Source: an uncultured Gammaproteobacteria bacterium
Lineage (GTDB): Bacteria; Patescibacteriota; Microgenomatia; Daviesbacterales; UBA10151
Length of the DNA: 64,000 bases
NCBI GenBank assembly: GCA_964500725.1
Contig: CAZCNP010000001.1
Span: 138,950 to 202,949, forward strand
Direction: 5' to 3'
Positions 16,167 through 29,703 of this stretch are shown here, one piece after another. Position numbers and translations under genes: made by a program. The notes under the pieces are model-generated. The model saw only the letters and a program-made list of their open reading frames with translations. It was not told where the DNA came from and ran no database searches. The first letter of the stretch is position 1. Each line of letters begins with the position of its first letter.

Positions 16167-16250
16167 GCCGGGGTGGTGGAACAGCAGACACGTATCTCTC
16201 AAAAAGATATGAGCCAAAAGCTCGTGAGGGTGCAAATCCCTCTCCCGGTA
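16167..16250 (+). tRNA. tRNA-Leu (anticodon CAA), class II with long variable arm
   Basis: Hand-folded. Acceptor GCCGGGG pairs with TCCCGGT (2 GU). Anticodon stem TATCT/AGATA with loop CTCAAAA (U33, CAA, A37). Variable arm GAGC-CAAAA-GCTC. T-arm GAGGG-TGCAAAT-CCCTC. Discriminator A; CCA not encoded. The D-loop lacks the canonical GG. Confidence 0.55.
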
Positions 16251-16276
16251 CTCCAGGTATAATTATCTTAATTTAC

Positions 16277-21827: not shown

Positions 21828-22541
21828 CTATTTTCCTCTCTCTGCGATGTCTGCTATTGCAAAATTGCTGTCAAAATAAGACCTGAAGAAAATATCAACT
21901 TTATCCCCTAGTGGCTCATCCTGACCTTCTACTACCACCAGTGCATCTGCTTTTCTATAACCTACTAGCATACAAAACCTGGAAAGTCCTCTCAATGATT
22001 CATCCAAAATTCTGTTACTAGGCATGTTATCTGTGTAGGGATCCCATGATTCTGTTGCTGGTGGAGTAAATAGAGTTGGCACCATTAAACATTCTGGATT
22101 AATTCCCAAATACCCTCGGGGAACACCTTGCTTTTCTACACTCATGAATTTTAATGTTCCCACCAACCTATCCCGAGGGCTAATTTTTTGCAGCTCACCA
22201 GCCAGCTTAACAAGATCAATCCTATCGGAGTATTTCACTACTGCTACTACAGCATTGGGCATGCTTTGTCCGCTTAAAGGTGCATCAGCAGCAAACATAG
22301 ATTTTAGTTGTTCTTCGCGAGCTGTACTTGTTACCAGAGCGCAATAGTTAATGAAATCTTCTCCTGGTGAAACCTTAGCATGATCGGCATAAAGATCAGA
22401 ATAAGAAAAGACCCTTATTCCTAAACCAACTTTTTGAGCAGATTTTACCGCCTCTCTGGCAGGCTTAATAGAATATCCATCTAAAGCTACTTTAGCAATT
22501 CCTGGAGGCGTATTTCTAAAATATTCAAAGTCAACTTTCAT
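21828..22541 (-). CDS. hypothetical protein
   Basis: 237-aa ORF with good coding character; no family recognised. Confidence 0.5.
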   Translation of the reverse strand: MKVDFEYFRNTPPGIAKVALDGYSIKPAREAVKSAQKVGLGIRVFSYSDLYADHAKVSPGEDFINYCALVTSTAREEQLKSMFAADAPLSGQSMPNAVVAVVKYSDRIDLVKLAGELQKISPRDRLVGTLKFMSVEKQGVPRGYLGINPECLMVPTLFTPPATESWDPYTDNMPSNRILDESLRGLSRFCMLVGYRKADALVVVEGQDEPLGDKVDIFFRSYFDSNFAIADIAERGK

Positions 22542-22572
22542 TAGTAGCTAATTATATCCTATATACCCCATA

Positions 22573-22606
22573 GTTGACAAGCTTAAAAATTGTGATATAC
22601 TAATTA
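22573..22606 (+). promoter_or_regulatory. sigma70-like promoter (TTGACA-16-TATACT)
   Basis: TTGACAagcttaaaaattgtgaTATACT. Confidence 0.5.
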
Positions 22607-22607
22607 C

Positions 22608-22795
22608 ACAACTTAATATTTTAAAAGCGTTTGTATAGGAGTCACGATCCTAAAGCTGAGAGCCAAATACTCTACGGAAGTTTAACCGTTAAATAAAACA
22701 GACGATGTTGGAAAACCAAAGTCGCCACTAAGAGTTCTTAGAAAGTAATTTTTAAGAAAAACAGGATGGGACCGCGGGAGGTCCTTTTTTAATAC
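22608..22795 (+). promoter_or_regulatory. candidate T-box riboswitch leader ending in an intrinsic terminator, upstream of hisS
   Basis: F-box-like CCGTTA at 22686-22691. T-box-like AAAACAGGATGGGACCGCGG at 22757-22776 (compare AAUUAGGGUGGNACCGCG). Hairpin GGACC-gcggga-GGTCC followed by TTTTTT at 22769-22790. Confidence 0.4.
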
Positions 22796-22860
22796 AAAAA
22801 AAGATAACTCTCGTTCCTTGTTCATTACATTTGTAGTGGGCAAAGAATGGGAGTTTTTAA

Positions 22861-23058
22861 ATGGAAAAATTTAATGGTAGACCATCTATTTCAGAAATAT
22901 TTGACGCTCTTACAAGTGAGGAGACAACTCCTGATTGGGACACTCAAATATTGAGGGAAGCTGATGGCAGGTATGTAGAAAGAATAAGGGATGTTTTAAA
23001 CATAGGCTTACCTTTAGGTGAAGCAAGGATTGCATTAAGAGGCTTAGAAGAAAGATAG
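22861..23058 (+). CDS. small ORF (65 aa) between leader and hisS, doubtful
   Basis: Only an ORF-track call; acidic, with no SD sequence; could be non-coding leader sequence. Confidence 0.2.
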   Translation: MEKFNGRPSISEIFDALTSEETTPDWDTQILREADGRYVERIRDVLNIGLPLGEARIALRGLEER

Positions 23059-23113
23059 AAAGAAGGGAATAATTTTACAGTTGCAGCTAAAGTTGTTAAG
23101 ATGGGAGAATATT

Positions 23114-24355
23114 ATGATTAAAGCTCAGACATTAAAAGGATTTAGGGATTTTTTACCTGGTGAGGCCAGGAAAAGACAGTATGTTCAAAATATATTAAAA
23201 AGTGTTTTTGAATCATATGGTTTTGAACCTTTGGAAACCCCTGCTTTGGAGTATGAAGAAATACTTTTGGGCAAATATGGTGAGGAAGGTGATAAGCTAA
23301 TGTACCGTTTTACAGATAATGGAGACAGAAGAGTTGCTTTAAGATATGATCAAACAGTACCCTTGGCAAGAGTGATAGCAGAGTATGGGGATAAACTCCC
23401 TACTCCATTTAAAAGATACCAAATCCAACCTGTCTGGAGAGCTGAAAATACTCAAAAAGGAAGGTTTAGAGAATTTTTACAGTGTGATATAGACACAGTT
23501 GGCTCCAACTCCCCTCTTTCTGATGCAGAAATTATTGCCTGCACAATTCAATCATTAGAAAAATTAGGATTTGAAAATTGCAAAATCCTAGTAAATGACA
23601 GGGTAATCTTTTCCCAGCTTACCACCAAAACTGCTATTACTGAACAACAACTTCCAGCTGTAATAAGAATTTTAGATAAATTAAAAAAGATTGGCAGAGA
23701 AGGAGTAATAAATGAATTAGGAAAGATTGGATTTGGCAGTGAAAGAGCCACAAATATCTTACAAACAGTAGAAACTTATCCTCCTACTCAAAACTTACAA
23801 GCTGTTTTTCAACTTTTAGAACAAATGGGGATATCAAAAGAAAAATATGAATTCTCTCCTACTCTTGCAAGAGGATTAGACTACTACACAGGTTTAATTT
23901 TTGAAGCTGAAATTGAAGGTTACACTGCTGGATCAGTAGCAGGCGGCGGTAGATATGATAAGTTGGTAGGTATGTTCAGCGGTAAAGATATCCCGGCAGT
24001 AGGACTTGCTTATGGATTTGACCGCATAGTTGAGGCTATGACTGAATTAAATCTCTTCCCTGCCGAGCTTTCTACTACAAAAGTTTTAGTAACAGTATTT
24101 TCTCCTGACCTTTTAGATAAATCTTTAGAGGTAAGCTCTCTTTTGCGTTCAAATAATATAAATACTGAAATCTGGCTAAATACTGAGGCTAAACTAGAAA
24201 AGCAGTTAAAATATGCAGACCAAAAAGGGATACCCTTTGTAATTATCATTGGCTCCGAGGAAGCAAACTCTGGAAAAGTAATGTTAAAAAACCTTAGCAC
24301 CAAAGAGCAGCAAGCTCTAACCCTTGACGAAGTGATAGCAGAACTGTCATCCTAA
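23114..24355 (+). CDS. hisS: histidine--tRNA ligase
   Basis: Class II aaRS motifs (GFRDFLPGE..., RYDQTVPLAR, GGGRYD); GGGAGA SD 5 nt before the ATG at 23114. The ORF-track start at 23081 is probably too long. Confidence 0.9.
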   Translation: MIKAQTLKGFRDFLPGEARKRQYVQNILKSVFESYGFEPLETPALEYEEILLGKYGEEGDKLMYRFTDNGDRRVALRYDQTVPLARVIAEYGDKLPTPFKRYQIQPVWRAENTQKGRFREFLQCDIDTVGSNSPLSDAEIIACTIQSLEKLGFENCKILVNDRVIFSQLTTKTAITEQQLPAVIRILDKLKKIGREGVINELGKIGFGSERATNILQTVETYPPTQNLQAVFQLLEQMGISKEKYEFSPTLARGLDYYTGLIFEAEIEGYTAGSVAGGGRYDKLVGMFSGKDIPAVGLAYGFDRIVEAMTELNLFPAELSTTKVLVTVFSPDLLDKSLEVSSLLRSNNINTEIWLNTEAKLEKQLKYADQKGIPFVIIIGSEEANSGKVMLKNLSTKEQQALTLDEVIAELSS

Positions 24356-28465: not shown

Positions 28466-29703
28466 TATTCCAGCAACTCTACAGCTTTATCCAACTGCGG
28501 GTCTTTGGTTGCATCTTCTTTGTCAGATTCTGTCACCGCAGGTGACTCTATTTTAACATCTGGTTCAAGACCTTGTATATCATTAACCCACCTGCCGTTA
28601 GGTGTTAACCACTTAGCTACAGTAATATGGATGCCTGTTCCTCCTGCTAAATCCTGGGCTTCTTGAATAGTCCCTTTTCCAAATGATTTTTCTCCTACAA
28701 GCTGTGCCCTGTCTCTATCCTGCAAAGCCCCTGCCACAATTTCTGAGGCTGATGCCGAACCTTTATTTATCAAACCAACCATTGGTATATTAATTAATTT
28801 TCCTACCCTGCTAGCTTTAAACGAGGCTTGTACACCCTCATTGTTTTCCTGTAAAACCACATTCCCTCCATTCAAAAATTCTGAGGCAATAAATACTGCG
28901 CCTTCCAAAAACCCGCCCGGGTTGTTTCTTAAATCCAGCACTACAGCATCAGAGTTTGCTGCAAGTAAACTCGAAACAGCCTCTTGCCATTCATCTTCTG
29001 TTCTCTCTCCAAAGCGGGATAATTTAATCACCGCGACTTTTTTACCAGAGGTTGTATCTTTGAAAAACACCTCTACACTTTTTACAATAATTGTATCCCG
29101 GGTAAGTGTAAATGATTTGGTATCTGCATCCCCTTCTCTAAAAATTGTTAGAGTAATATCAGTTCCTTTTGGCCCTCTGATTAAATTGACTGCCTCAGGC
29201 AAAGTAATATTAGCAGTTTCTTTATCATTGATTTTAACAATTTGATCACCAGGGGCAATACCAGCTTTTTGAGCAGGAGTGCCAGAGAGAGGCGCAATCA
29301 CTACTAATCTTTTTTCTTTATTAAATCCGAGCTGAATACCAACTCCTTCAAAGCTGCCATTTAACTCATCTTTAGTAAACTTTTGTTGCTCAGGTGGCAA
29401 AAAAACTGTATACGGATCTCCTAAAGCAGAAACCATCCCAGAGATAGCGCCATAATATAGCTTACTAGGATCTATTGCTTTTTTATCAACATACGAACGG
29501 TATAAAAGATCCCAGGTATCCCAAAATAGCTTAAAATCCAAATTAACCTGCTTAGGAGGCTGTTTATTAACAACAGAAATGGATGGTTTATAGGTAGCCC
29601 ACTTTATTTGGACATCTTTATGACCTAACTGCCACCCTAAAAGAAAAGCAAGTATTACTATTAAAACTGCTCTTGTATTTATTTCTCGGAGGGCTTGCTT
29701 CAT
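28465..29703 (-). CDS. ctp: S41 C-terminal processing peptidase
   Basis: PDZ plus S41 core (GLINKGSASASEIVAGALQD...GEKSFGKGTIQ). Confidence 0.85.
   Translation of the reverse strand: MKQALREINTRAVLIVILAFLLGWQLGHKDVQIKWATYKPSISVVNKQPPKQVNLDFKLFWDTWDLLYRSYVDKKAIDPSKLYYGAISGMVSALGDPYTVFLPPEQQKFTKDELNGSFEGVGIQLGFNKEKRLVVIAPLSGTPAQKAGIAPGDQIVKINDKETANITLPEAVNLIRGPKGTDITLTIFREGDADTKSFTLTRDTIIVKSVEVFFKDTTSGKKVAVIKLSRFGERTEDEWQEAVSSLLAANSDAVVLDLRNNPGGFLEGAVFIASEFLNGGNVVLQENNEGVQASFKASRVGKLINIPMVGLINKGSASASEIVAGALQDRDRAQLVGEKSFGKGTIQEAQDLAGGTGIHITVAKWLTPNGRWVNDIQGLEPDVKIESPAVTESDKEDATKDPQLDKAVELLE

What the first reader, a model, noticed from the sequence alone, without database searches (positions are those of the whole stretch)
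22573..23116. Candidate T-box riboswitch controlling hisS
Downstream of a good TTGACA-16-TATACT promoter, the leader contains CCGTTA (F-box consensus CCGUUA). It has the segment AAAACAGGATGGGACCGCGG, which resembles the T-box consensus AAUUAGGGUGGNACCGCG. A GGACC/GGTCC hairpin with a U6 tract overlaps the 3' half of that motif, as in T-box terminator/antiterminator switches. The first conserved gene downstream is histidyl-tRNA synthetase. About 320 nt, including a doubtful 65-aa ORF, separate the terminator from the hisS ATG, which is longer than typical.
Basis: partly seen in the sequence, partly recalled or inferred. Interest (0 to 1): 0.5.

Follow-up and report, generated by a model that had tools for sequence, protein, structure and literature searches.

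The report
Compact histidine T-box leader of hisS
The leader upstream of hisS is very likely a real tRNA-sensing T-box riboswitch specific for histidine, but it is a miniaturised version found in candidate-phyla-radiation bacteria that standard databases miss, it carries two terminator-like hairpins instead of one, and in related genomes it sits directly in front of the tRNA-His gene.

Summary
The Rfam T-box model matches at only 27.3 bits, below the 93-bit threshold, because about 76 positions of Stem I are replaced by 7 nt. The same leader occurs in 86 places (82 distinct) in Microgenomates/Patescibacteria genomes and metagenomes. Covariation supports all aptamer helices and the Stem IIA/B pseudoknot. 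The 7-nt apical loop GUCACGA presents the His codon CAC. The bulge UGGG matches the CCCA end of lineage tRNA-His (C73 in 14 of 14). Downstream genes are hisS, hisG, hisE, hisI, hisD, hisC and a histidine-racemase-like gene; in 14 leaders the next gene is tRNA-His. The main correction concerns the expression platform. The canonical terminator is a second hairpin (T2, 22807-22854, then U5). T2 also holds the ribosome-binding site of a conserved 65-aa ORF, which accounts for the "too long" gap before hisS. This is a new variant of a known kind: a T-box with an ultrashort Stem I, a terminator platform and a nested pre-terminator. The roles of T1 and T2 are inferred, not tested.

The parts
22574..22601 (+). 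Sigma-70-type promoter: TTGACA, 16-nt spacer, TG-extended TATACT. The inferred transcription start is near 22608.
   Evidence: 11/12 matches, TG present. A promoter scoring at least 9/12 is found in 73 of 80 homologous leaders, in most of them ending 16-24 nt before Stem I.
22626..22657 (+). Ultrashort Stem I. Base helix AGC/GCU (22626-28 with 22655-57), an internal loop (K-turn-like in many homologues), upper helix UAGGA/UCCUA (22636-40 with 22648-52), and a 7-nt apical specifier loop GUCACGA (22641-47). The His codon CAC is at 22643-45 and is followed by the purine G.
   Evidence: The Rfam alignment replaces 76 model positions with 7 nt. Helices 1 and 2 covary, with 7 of 8 pairs showing changes on both sides. 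The loop is GUCACGN in 74 of 82 distinct leaders, and CAC is present in 81 of 82.
22659..22673 (+). Short Stem II hairpin: AGAG/CUCU with the A-rich loop CCAAAUA. The family consensus for the loop is YCAAAAUR.
   Evidence: Helix 3: all 4 pairs change on both sides and 99.4% of cells are paired. Loop tally.
22675..22699 (+). Stem IIA (CGG/CCG, 22675-77 with 22686-88), F-box CCGUUA (22686-91), and the IIB pseudoknot GUUU (22680-83) with AAAC (22696-99).
   Evidence: Helix 4. For the pseudoknot, 87.8% of cells are paired and there are 82 double-change cells against 22.7 in shuffles (0/500). The pseudoknot was not part of the model that made the alignment.
22703..22724 (+). An extra conserved hairpin in the linker between the decoding and discriminator domains: CGAU-G-UUGG AAAA CCAA-A-GUCG. 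Its function is unknown.
   Evidence: Rfam treats it as an insertion. Helix 5: 6 of 8 pairs change on both sides.
22730..22762 (+). Purine string AAGAG (RRRNG, 22730-34), Stem III (22735-58), and the AA-rich linker (22759-62).
   Evidence: Helix 6: all 10 pairs change on both sides. The motif tally matches the RRRNG-Stem III-AA motif described in PMC7778990.
22763..22781 (+). T-box sequence forming the 5' strand of the antiterminator: A1 AGGA (22763-66), the 7-nt bulge UGGGACC (22767-73, where UGGG pairs with the tRNA 3' CCCA), and A2 GCGGGAGG (22774-81).
   Evidence: The sequence is invariant across the leaders. Lineage tRNA-His genes have C73 in 14 of 14 cases.
22768..22790 (+). It sequesters the acceptor-binding bulge and lies inside the apical loop of the antiterminator. 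Its inferred role is an early terminator or a pause.
   Evidence: terminator scan. The free energy is about -10 kcal/mol. It is present with a run of at least 5 U in 61 of 63 non-redundant leaders, in three sequence variants. It is absent in L094 and L119.
22807..22818 (+). 3' strand of the antiterminator: ACUCUCGU (pairs with A2, 7 of 8) and UCCU (pairs with A1, 4 of 4). The same bases form the 5' strand of T2.
   Evidence: The block CYYYYCGUUCCU is found 11-144 nt after A2 in 77 of 81 leaders. L094 and L119 show the same pairing with only a small loop between the strands.
22807..22858 (+). T2, the canonical terminator/sequestrator: a 48-nt hairpin (-26 kcal/mol) followed by U5. Its 3' strand contains the Shine-Dalgarno sequence GGGAG (22849-53) of orf65.
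   Evidence: One search gives T1+T2 (the MFE) at -38.6 kcal/mol and the best antiterminator-containing fold at -26.3. Counting from the table, a T2 hairpin (-20 to -60 kcal/mol) followed by at least 5 U is present in about 58 of 81 leaders.
22861..23058 (+). orf65, a conserved small protein-coding gene of unknown function and the first cistron of the regulated operon.
   Evidence: Homologues lie at the same position in L007 (77% amino-acid identity), L134 and L032. Differences by codon position are 11, 6 and 21. There is no Pfam hit.
23074..23115 (+). Relic of the 3' end of a DapF-like (histidine-racemase-like) gene, reading FTVAAKVVKMGEYY. It overlaps the hisS ribosome-binding site.
   Evidence: It aligns with the end of the intact or fragmentary gene in L007 and L001.
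23114..24355 (+). hisS, encoding histidyl-tRNA synthetase. This is the regulated gene.
   Evidence: Pfam tRNA-synt_His E=7.7e-48 and HGTP_anticodon. It is 56-71% identical to Microgenomates HisRS proteins.

Best explanation
This is a histidine-specific T-box riboswitch with a compact architecture. It belongs to a Microgenomates (Patescibacteria/CPR) bacterium and controls the operon orf65-hisS.

The proposed mechanism is as follows. Transcription starts near 22608. The anticodon GUG of tRNA-His pairs with CAC, which is displayed in a 7-nt, anticodon-loop-like apical loop of an ultrashort Stem I. A short A-rich Stem II hairpin and the Stem IIA/B pseudoknot support this contact. There is no distal Stem I platform for the tRNA elbow.

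If the tRNA is uncharged, its 3' end CCCA pairs with UGGG in the T-box bulge. This stabilises a canonical antiterminator, with A1 AGGA/UCCU and A2 GCGGGAGG/(A)CUCUCGU. The 3' strand of that antiterminator is the 5' strand of the strong terminator T2 (22807-54, then U5). T2 therefore cannot form, RNA polymerase reads through, and the orf65 ribosome-binding site stays free.

Without uncharged tRNA-His, two hairpins form. T1 (22768-85, then U6) pairs the bulge itself and can terminate or pause polymerase before the antiterminator 3' strand has been made. T2 then terminates whatever escapes T1 and masks the ribosome-binding site.

What is shown here: the conserved structures, the codon, the bulge/discriminator match, the antiterminator/T2 strand sharing, and the histidine regulon. 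What is inferred: tRNA binding, discrimination between charged and uncharged tRNA, and the division of labour between T1 and T2.
For: **Match to the family**
- Rfam T-box aligns over the full model with a truncated Stem I.
- The same leader occurs 86 times (82 distinct sequences). All seven modelled helices are 85-100% paired. Six of them show changes on both sides; T1 varies on one side only.
- The pseudoknot covaries.

**Histidine specificity**
- CAC is in the loop in 81 of 82 leaders. RRRNG-Stem III-AA is present and the bulge UGGGACC is invariant.
- 14 of 14 linked tRNA-His genes have an encoded G-1 and C73.

**Expression platform**
- The antiterminator 3' strand pairs 7-8 of 8 (A2) and 4 of 4 (A1) at variable distance in 77 of 81 leaders.
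- One-sided and a few two-sided compensations are seen, for example L149 GCGGGAGC/GCUCUCGU.
- L094 and L119 have the same antiterminator with only a short loop.
- T1+T2 folds at -38.6 kcal/mol against -26.3 for the antiterminator fold, so the default state is off.

**Gene context**
- Leaders collected only through an 18-nt T-box motif are followed by hisG, hisS, hisE, hisD, hisC, hisI, a histidine-racemase-like gene or tRNA-His.
- Where a tRNA gene follows T2 directly, control cannot be translational. This supports termination.
Against: - No experiment was done, and tRNA binding is inferred.
- The Rfam score is far below the curated threshold.
- Stem II has no recognisable S-turn.
- C73 of mature tRNA-His is normally paired with G-1, so the fourth pair with UGGG may not form. 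TBDB ignores discriminator matching for His for this reason (PMC7778990).
- The T-box strand is invariant, so the antiterminator and T1 helices show almost no two-sided covariation.
- T1 is a weak terminator (about -10 kcal/mol). In several homologues 1-3 nt separate its stem from the U-run.
- About 19 leaders lack a U-run after T2 and look translational.
- 64 of the 80 closest HisRS loci have no such leader within 3 kb upstream.
Confidence: 0.85

Rival explanations
1. T1 (22768-85, then U6) is the only terminator. The antiterminator is a register shift in which UCCU (22782-85) moves from GGGA to AGGA once the tRNA occupies UGGG. The downstream hairpin T2 is unrelated to the switch.
For: T1 is nearly universal (61 of 63 non-redundant leaders) and has a terminator shape. 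L006 and L001 have T1 but no T2 or antiterminator 3' strand. AGGA and GGGA can both pair with UCCU, as the sequence shows.
Against: This model does not explain why the 12-nt block CYYYYCGUUCCU is conserved at variable distance and is complementary to A1 plus A2. It does not explain why GCGGGAGG, which would be a mere loop, is invariant. It also does not explain why L094 and L119 lack T1 altogether yet keep the antiterminator and T2.
Confidence: 0.08
2. Control is purely translational, as in actinobacterial ileS T-boxes. T2 is only a sequestrator of the orf65 Shine-Dalgarno sequence, and its U-run is simply the spacer before the start codon. T1 and T2 do not terminate transcription.
For: GGGAG(G) in the T2 3' strand lies 7-8 nt before the start codon in the window and in many homologues. 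A subfamily of about 19 leaders has a sequestrator without a U-run. According to PMC7583486, ultrashort Stem I is so far associated with translational T-boxes.
Against: In 14 leaders T2 plus U6 abuts a tRNA-His gene, which is not translated. In L005, L022 and L035 the real gene has its own Shine-Dalgarno sequence downstream of T2. Both T1 and T2 have the hairpin-plus-U-run shape, conserved in about 58 of 81 leaders for T2 and 61 of 63 for T1.
Confidence: 0.1
3. The T-box identity and the antiterminator/T2 switch are as in the best explanation, but T1 is not a terminator. Instead it is a hairpin-stabilised pause, or an anti-antiterminator, that gives a T-box lacking the elbow platform more time to capture tRNA and keeps the bulge masked until then.
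For: T1 is weak (-7 to -13 kcal/mol). In some homologues the U-run is offset by 1-3 nt. Pausing has been shown to set kinetic checkpoints for tRNA capture in the glyQS T-box (PMC13001445). The review PMC7583486 argues that transcriptional T-boxes need fast tRNA capture through the elbow platform, which is missing here.
Against: No data separate pausing from termination. L006 appears to rely on T1 alone, where it is stronger (-12.4 kcal/mol, U8).
Confidence: 0.3
4. The element is not a tRNA sensor. It is a conserved leader bound by a protein such as HisRS, or a decaying relic with chance similarity to a T-box.
For: The Rfam score is below threshold. One homologue, L054, has lost the CAC loop.
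Against: All the modules that contact the tRNA, namely the codon, the purine after it, the UGGG bulge and the RRRNG string, are the most conserved positions. Helices covary across 82 distinct sequences. The association with tRNA-His genes and his genes is specific.
Confidence: 0.03

Closest known systems
Canonical transcriptional T-box riboswitch (Rfam RF00230; B. subtilis tyrS/glyQS; Firmicute hisS leaders with a CAC specifier)
   Same: Shared features are a specifier codon followed by a purine, a K-turn-like base of Stem I, the Stem IIA/B pseudoknot with F-box, RRRNG-Stem III-AA, the T-box sequence with a 7-nt UGGN bulge, the A1/A2 antiterminator that shares its 3' strand with a hairpin-plus-U-run terminator, and regulation of an aminoacyl-tRNA synthetase and biosynthesis genes.
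   Different: Stem I is about 30 nt, not about 100. The AG bulge, the distal loop and the tRNA-elbow platform are all missing, and the codon sits in an apical loop. Stem II is a short hairpin. There is an extra hairpin in the linker. A second terminator-like hairpin (T1) is nested in the antiterminator loop and pairs with the bulge. The score is 27-44 bits against a 93-bit threshold. The host phylum is Patescibacteria.
Actinobacterial translational ileS T-boxes with ultrashort Stem I (Sherwood et al. 2015; M. tuberculosis ileS structure, as described in PMC7583486 and PMC11297988)
   Same: Shared features are an ultrashort Stem I with the specifier in an apical loop, no elbow platform, reliance on Stem II and the IIA/B pseudoknot, insertions on top of helix A2, and a ribosome-binding site inside the alternative hairpin.
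   Different: Here the alternative hairpin is followed by a U-run in most members and can precede a tRNA gene, so termination is implied. The specificity is His, not Ile. There is an extra linker hairpin, the T1 element is present, and the phylum differs. The comparison rests on published descriptions, because no actinobacterial sequence was available to align.
Staphylococcal glyS T-box with the stem Sa insertion in the antiterminator/terminator domain (PMC9177973)
   Same: Both have a lineage-specific insertion in the apical part of the antiterminator.
   Different: Stem Sa is not described as pairing with the T-box bulge or as carrying its own U-run. I recalled this from the abstract only and did not test it.
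L119-type long-Stem-I His T-box from the same metagenome collection
   Same: It has the identical discriminator sequence (GGAUGGGACCGCGGGAG...CUCUCGUUCC) and a CAC specifier, and it is followed by tRNA-His.
   Different: It has a long Stem I with a side-bulge specifier (GAA-CAC-A) and no T1. It scores 83.7 bits. It looks like the ancestral form of the compact family.

Membership tests
T-box riboswitch (tRNA-sensing leader) | A specifier codon in Stem I that matches the amino acid of the regulated genes, followed by a purine | tested here: met
   CAC is at 22643-45 and is followed by G. CAC is present in 81 of 82 distinct leaders. Downstream genes are hisS, hisG, hisE, hisI, hisD, hisC and tRNA-His.
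T-box riboswitch (tRNA-sensing leader) | A conserved T-box sequence with a 7-nt bulge whose UGGN is complementary to the tRNA NCCA end | tested here: met
   AGGAUGGGACCGCG is at 22763-76 and is invariant. UGGG matches C73-CCA of 14 of 14 linked tRNA-His genes. One caveat is that C73 pairs with G-1 in mature tRNA-His.
T-box riboswitch (tRNA-sensing leader) | Mutually exclusive antiterminator (A1-bulge-A2) and terminator or sequestrator that share one strand | tested here: met
   A1 pairs 4 of 4 and A2 pairs 7-8 of 8 in 77 of 81 leaders. The same strand forms T2.
T-box riboswitch (tRNA-sensing leader) | Stem IIA/B pseudoknot with F-box | tested here: met
   CCGUUA is at 22686-91. The pseudoknot covaries, with 82 double-change cells against 22.7 in shuffles.
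T-box riboswitch (tRNA-sensing leader) | Stem II with an S-turn and 5-purine string that docks on the codon-anticodon duplex | tested here: inconclusive
   There is a covarying 4-6 bp hairpin with the A-rich loop YCAAAAUR. No S-turn is recognisable, so docking cannot be judged from sequence.
T-box riboswitch (tRNA-sensing leader) | Stem III flanked by RRRNG and AA | tested here: met
   AAGAG, Stem III (all 10 pairs change on both sides), then AAAAC.
T-box riboswitch (tRNA-sensing leader) | A long Stem I with AG bulge and distal loop, forming the tRNA-elbow platform | tested here: not met
   76 model positions are replaced by 7 nt. Stem I spans only 22626-57.
T-box riboswitch (tRNA-sensing leader) | Score at or above the Rfam RF00230 gathering threshold | tested here: not met
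   The window scores 27.3 bits and homologues score 34-44, against a threshold of 93. A canonical T-box in L197 scores 136.5.
T-box riboswitch (tRNA-sensing leader) | Uncharged cognate tRNA binds and increases readthrough, while charged tRNA does not | not testable with these tools
   This needs in vitro transcription or binding assays.
Class II translational T-box (actinobacterial ileS type) | An ultrashort Stem I with the specifier in the apical loop | tested here: met
   The 7-nt loop GUCACGA sits on a 5-bp helix.
Class II translational T-box (actinobacterial ileS type) | An expression platform that is a Shine-Dalgarno sequestrator without an intrinsic terminator | tested here: not met
   The window T2 is followed by U5, and T1 by U6. 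About 58 of 81 leaders have T2 plus at least 5 U. Fourteen precede a tRNA gene. A subfamily of about 19 leaders does meet this feature.

The most novel reading that the evidence does not exclude
A CPR-specific T-box design makes transcriptional control work without the tRNA-elbow platform by using two sequential checkpoints. The first is a pre-terminator or pause (T1) that competes directly with the tRNA 3' end for the bulge. The second is the canonical antiterminator/terminator (T2). In many lineages the first regulated gene is the ligand's own gene, tRNA-His. That would be a T-box driving transcription of the tRNA it senses, which creates a positive-feedback or bootstrapping circuit if that gene is the only tRNA-His copy.
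Probability: 0.45. Interest if true: 0.75.

Novelty: new variant of a known kind. Interest (0 to 1): 0.6.

Why it matters
T-box riboswitches are usually described as a feature mainly of Gram-positive bacteria. Current reviews state that transcriptional T-boxes need a long Stem I with the elbow-binding platform, and that truncated Stem I goes with translational control (PMC7583486).

This family would be a natural counter-example, in ultrasmall bacteria with reduced genomes. It could therefore help define the minimal RNA needed for co-transcriptional tRNA sensing.

Threshold-based annotation misses the family, because it scores 27-44 bits against a 93-bit cut-off. I found no paper in the searchable library that links T-boxes with Patescibacteria.

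The leader also marks a histidine regulon in these organisms. That regulon includes a histidine-racemase-like gene, peptidases, and the tRNA-His gene itself. I know of no described T-box regulon that contains a tRNA gene, though this rests on my own knowledge and was not searched exhaustively.

Tried and rejected
- **Rfam at the gathering threshold.** It gave nothing anywhere in the window. It even missed a tRNA-Leu that scores 44.6 bits against a 29-bit threshold in E-value mode. That null result was therefore not informative.
- **A register-shift antiterminator using only T1.** I considered this first, then dropped it once the conserved downstream strand turned up.
- **Other copies or other amino-acid specificities.** The family model finds only one copy in the 64-kb window. 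In the metagenome scan every genuine compact-family leader has N=G in the bulge. Most hits with A, C or U at that position are chance matches in coding DNA, and L197 is an ordinary T-box. The pattern was biased towards this discriminator sequence, so other specificities are not excluded.
- **tRNA-His in the window.** None was found. The discriminator base was read from linked tRNA-His genes in homologous loci instead.
- **Sherwood et al. 2015 (PMC4313828).** It could not be read, so the comparison with actinobacterial T-boxes rests on reviews.
- **Pfam.** It gave nothing for orf65 or for the DapF-like protein. The PDB sequence search gave a weak best match to histidine racemase.
- **A fixed-register test of T2 pairing.** It under-counted because of 1-nt offsets, so I relied on the folding energies.
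Full report
**Observation.**
- A near-consensus promoter, TTGACA-16-TGnTATACT, lies at 22574-22601.
- CCGTTA is at 22686-91.
- AACAGGATGGGACCGCG is at 22760-76.
- A GGGACC/GGTCCT hairpin at 22768-85 is followed by T6.
- A 65-aa ORF runs from 22861 to 23058.
- hisS runs from 23114 to 24355 (Pfam tRNA-synt_His E=7.7e-48).

Rfam at its curated thresholds reports nothing in the window. In E-value mode the T-box model RF00230 aligns over its whole length at 22621-22788. The score is only 27.3 bits against a threshold of 93, with E=5.8e-4 for the 901-nt search and 0.041 for the whole window. The alignment explains the low score. Seventy-six model positions of Stem I are replaced by 7 nt, and a 22-nt hairpin is treated as an insertion.

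**Related sequences.** HisRS relatives (56-71% identity) come from Microgenomates/Patescibacteria MAGs such as Daviesbacteria and Levybacteria.
- Sixteen of these 80 loci carry the same leader upstream of hisS.
- A metagenome scan with the 18-nt motif AGGATGGNACCRCGRGAG returned 120 further loci.
- A covariance model built from 15 leaders finds exactly one copy in the window (210 bits).
- In all it finds 86 full-length copies, 82 of them distinct.
- A sigma-70 promoter scoring at least 9/12 is present in 73 of 80 leaders, in most of them ending 16-24 nt upstream of Stem I. The element is therefore the 5' end of a primary transcript.

**Structure of the aptamer.** On the 86-sequence alignment, 93.4% of cells form standard pairs, against 70% in shuffles and at most 53% when partners are slid. 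There are 731 double-change cells against 195 in shuffles, and 0 of 500 shuffles reach the observed value. The alignment was fitted to the model, and cells count sequences rather than independent events, but the margin is large.

The Stem IIA-loop/linker pseudoknot was not part of the model. It is still 87.8% paired, with 82 double changes against 22.7 in shuffles, for example GUUU/AAAC, GUUG/CAAC, GUUA/UAAC, GCC/GGC and GAC/GUC.

The modules in the window are:
- Stem I (22626-57): a 3-bp base, an internal loop that is K-turn-like (GA/GA) in many homologues, a 5-bp helix and the 7-nt loop GUCACGA.
- A short Stem II (22659-73) with an A-rich loop.
- Stem IIA with the F-box, and the pseudoknot (22675-99).
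- An extra linker hairpin (22703-24).
- AAGAG, Stem III, then AA (22730-62). This is the RRRNG-Stem III-AA motif described in PMC7778990.
- The T-box sequence itself.

**Specificity.** Three independent lines point to histidine.
- The apical loop is GUCACGN in 74 of 82 distinct leaders and contains CAC in 81 of 82. It resembles an anticodon loop: U, then three bases, then a purine. CAC also obeys the "C-rule" for specifiers (PMC7778990).
- The bulge is invariably UGGG.
- Fourteen leaders are followed within 60-275 nt by a tRNA gene. All fourteen are tRNA-His(GUG) with an encoded G-1 and C73, so the 3' end is CCCA, the complement of UGGG.

One caveat applies. C73 is normally paired with G-1, which is why TBDB ignores discriminator matching for His (PMC7778990).

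The protein genes behind the leaders are hisS (34), hisG (25), a DapF-like gene (24), peptidase M15 (12), hisE (8), hisD (6), hisC (4), hisI (3), an M20 peptidase and a SLOG protein. The best PDB match for the DapF-like protein is histidine racemase (E=2.6e-5). The metagenome loci were chosen only by the RNA motif, so this association is independent of how they were collected.

Downstream, a 12-nt block CYYYYCGUUCCU is conserved in 77 of 81 leaders, 11-144 nt after the T-box. It is complementary to A1 (AGGA/UCCU, 4 of 4) and A2 (GCGGGAGG/CCUCUCGU, 7-8 of 8). It leaves exactly the canonical 7-nt bulge UGGGACC. Changes keep the pairing, for example CCUUCCGU, GCGAGAGG, ACGGGAGG, and the two-sided change GCGGGAGC/GCUCUCGU in L149.

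The same block is the 5' strand of a long hairpin, T2, which is followed by 5-7 U. In the window T2 is 22807-54, at -26 kcal/mol, followed by U5. Counting from the table, about 58 of 81 leaders have such a T2, with free energies of -20 to -60 kcal/mol.

L094 (compact) and L119 (long Stem I, 83.7 bits) have the same antiterminator with only an 8-11-nt loop and no T1. These two show that T1 is an insertion in the apical loop of the antiterminator.

In the window, T1 plus T2 is the minimum-energy fold (-38.6 kcal/mol). The best fold that contains the antiterminator is -26.3, so the default state is off.

T1 is nevertheless selected for. Sixty-one of 63 non-redundant leaders keep a 5-7-bp hairpin on the bulge followed by at least 5 U. 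It occurs in three sequence variants (GGUCC, GGUCUC, GCGGUC), and L008 keeps it across a 30-nt insertion. The rest of the loop is not conserved.

**Transcription or translation?** The 3' strand of T2 carries GGGAG(G) 7-8 nt before the start codon of the first gene, in the window (orf65) and in many homologues. T2 could therefore also mask the ribosome-binding site.

Three observations argue for termination in most members.
- In 14 leaders T2 plus U6 abuts a tRNA gene.
- In L005, L022 and L035 the gene has its own Shine-Dalgarno sequence further downstream.
- Both hairpins have U-runs.

About 19 leaders (the L093/L103/L183 group and L169) have a hairpin without a U-run that pairs the antiterminator strand with the Shine-Dalgarno sequence. 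These look translational, although they keep T1 with its U-run.

**The gap before hisS.** orf65 has homologues at the same position in L007 (77% identity), L134 and L032. Differences concentrate at third codon positions (21, against 11 and 6), so it is probably a real small gene. Positions 23074-23115 are a relic of the 3' end of the DapF-like gene that lies before hisS in other loci. The "too long" distance is thus explained.

**Mechanism.** Uncharged tRNA-His would bind CAC and UGGG. This blocks T1, lets the antiterminator form once 22807-18 has been transcribed, prevents T2, and allows transcription and translation of orf65-hisS. Without it, T1 terminates or pauses polymerase, and T2 terminates and sequesters.

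The split of roles between T1 and T2 is inference. One alternative is that T1 is mainly a pause that buys time for a T-box lacking the fast elbow contact. Pausing is known to act as a checkpoint in glyQS (PMC13001445).

**Comparison and novelty.** All the discriminator and decoding hallmarks of T-boxes are met. The long Stem I platform and the Rfam threshold are not.

The closest described forms are the actinobacterial ileS T-boxes with ultrashort Stem I, which are translational (PMC7583486, PMC11297988). That review states that the elbow platform is essential in transcriptional T-boxes. TBDB searched its short-Stem-I model only in Actinobacteria, plus sequences already found by the Rfam model (PMC7778990). 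No paper in the library joins T-box with Patescibacteria or candidate phyla.

I therefore class this as a new variant of a known kind. Its lineage-specific features are the nested T1, the linker hairpin, and the placement in front of tRNA-His. None of these functional claims has been tested experimentally.

Noticed in passing
L054 1111-1184; also L087, L105, L116, L125, L127, L152, L156, L163, L165, L166, L177, L190, L192; L119 2691-2765: A tRNA-His(GUG) gene follows the His T-box leader directly, often starting 1 nt after the T2 U-run. It is usually the first gene of an operon that also holds hisS or his biosynthesis genes. No other tRNA type is found there. The T-box would therefore control the gene for its own ligand.
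   Followed up: partly
L054 845-1025: This leader has an intact T-box, antiterminator, T1 and T2, and a tRNA-His gene downstream. However, its Stem I loop is UUCCCCA, with no CAC. It may be degenerate, or it may recognise the tRNA differently.
   Followed up: no
L119 2822-3062 (- strand): A His T-box with a long Stem I and the side-bulge specifier GAA-CAC-A. Its discriminator sequence is the same as in the compact family, it has no T1, and it scores 83.7 bits, still below the Rfam threshold of 93. It is probably the ancestral form.
   Followed up: partly
window 23074-23115; intact genes in L004 1885-2625, L020 2274-2990, L022 2330-2989: A DapF-like gene family with no Pfam hit is a frequent member of the His T-box operon. 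Its best PDB match is histidine racemase (9cr6, E=2.6e-5). Only a 14-codon relic of it survives in the window, just before hisS.
   Followed up: partly
L005, L006, L008, L014, L105, L169, L193 and others, downstream of the leader: Histidine biosynthesis genes (hisG, hisE, hisI, hisD, hisC) occur in these CPR genomes, often only as a partial set. CPR bacteria are usually described as lacking amino-acid biosynthesis.
   Followed up: no
L093 973-1157(+) and 4635-4819(-); likewise L103, L106, L107, L183: Two nearly identical leaders face each other about 3.5 kb apart. One drives hisG-hisE-DapF-like and the other drives a peptidase M15 (VanX-like) gene. This subfamily has a Shine-Dalgarno sequestrator instead of a T2 terminator.
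   Followed up: no
window 16167-16251: ARAGORN finds a tRNA-Leu(CAA) here, and Rfam in E-value mode scores it at 44.6 bits against a 29-bit threshold. The Rfam run at gathering thresholds reported no match in the window. This looks like a filter artefact of that mode.
   Followed up: partly
window 22551-22580 (- strand): A promoter-like site, TTGTCA-18-TATAAT (11/12), overlaps the leader promoter back to back. It is suitably placed for the divergent gene at 21828-22541.
   Followed up: no
L005, L007, L008, L032 (between promoter and Stem I); L006 1760-1800 (inside the Stem I internal loop); L085, L091, L163, L189 (inside the linker hairpin): Lineage-specific extra hairpins are inserted at several points of the leader without disturbing the conserved modules.
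   Followed up: no
window 28718-28759: A weak partial Rfam match to Rickettsia sRNA47 (25.6 bits against a 60-bit threshold, E=0.014). This is probably chance.
   Followed up: no
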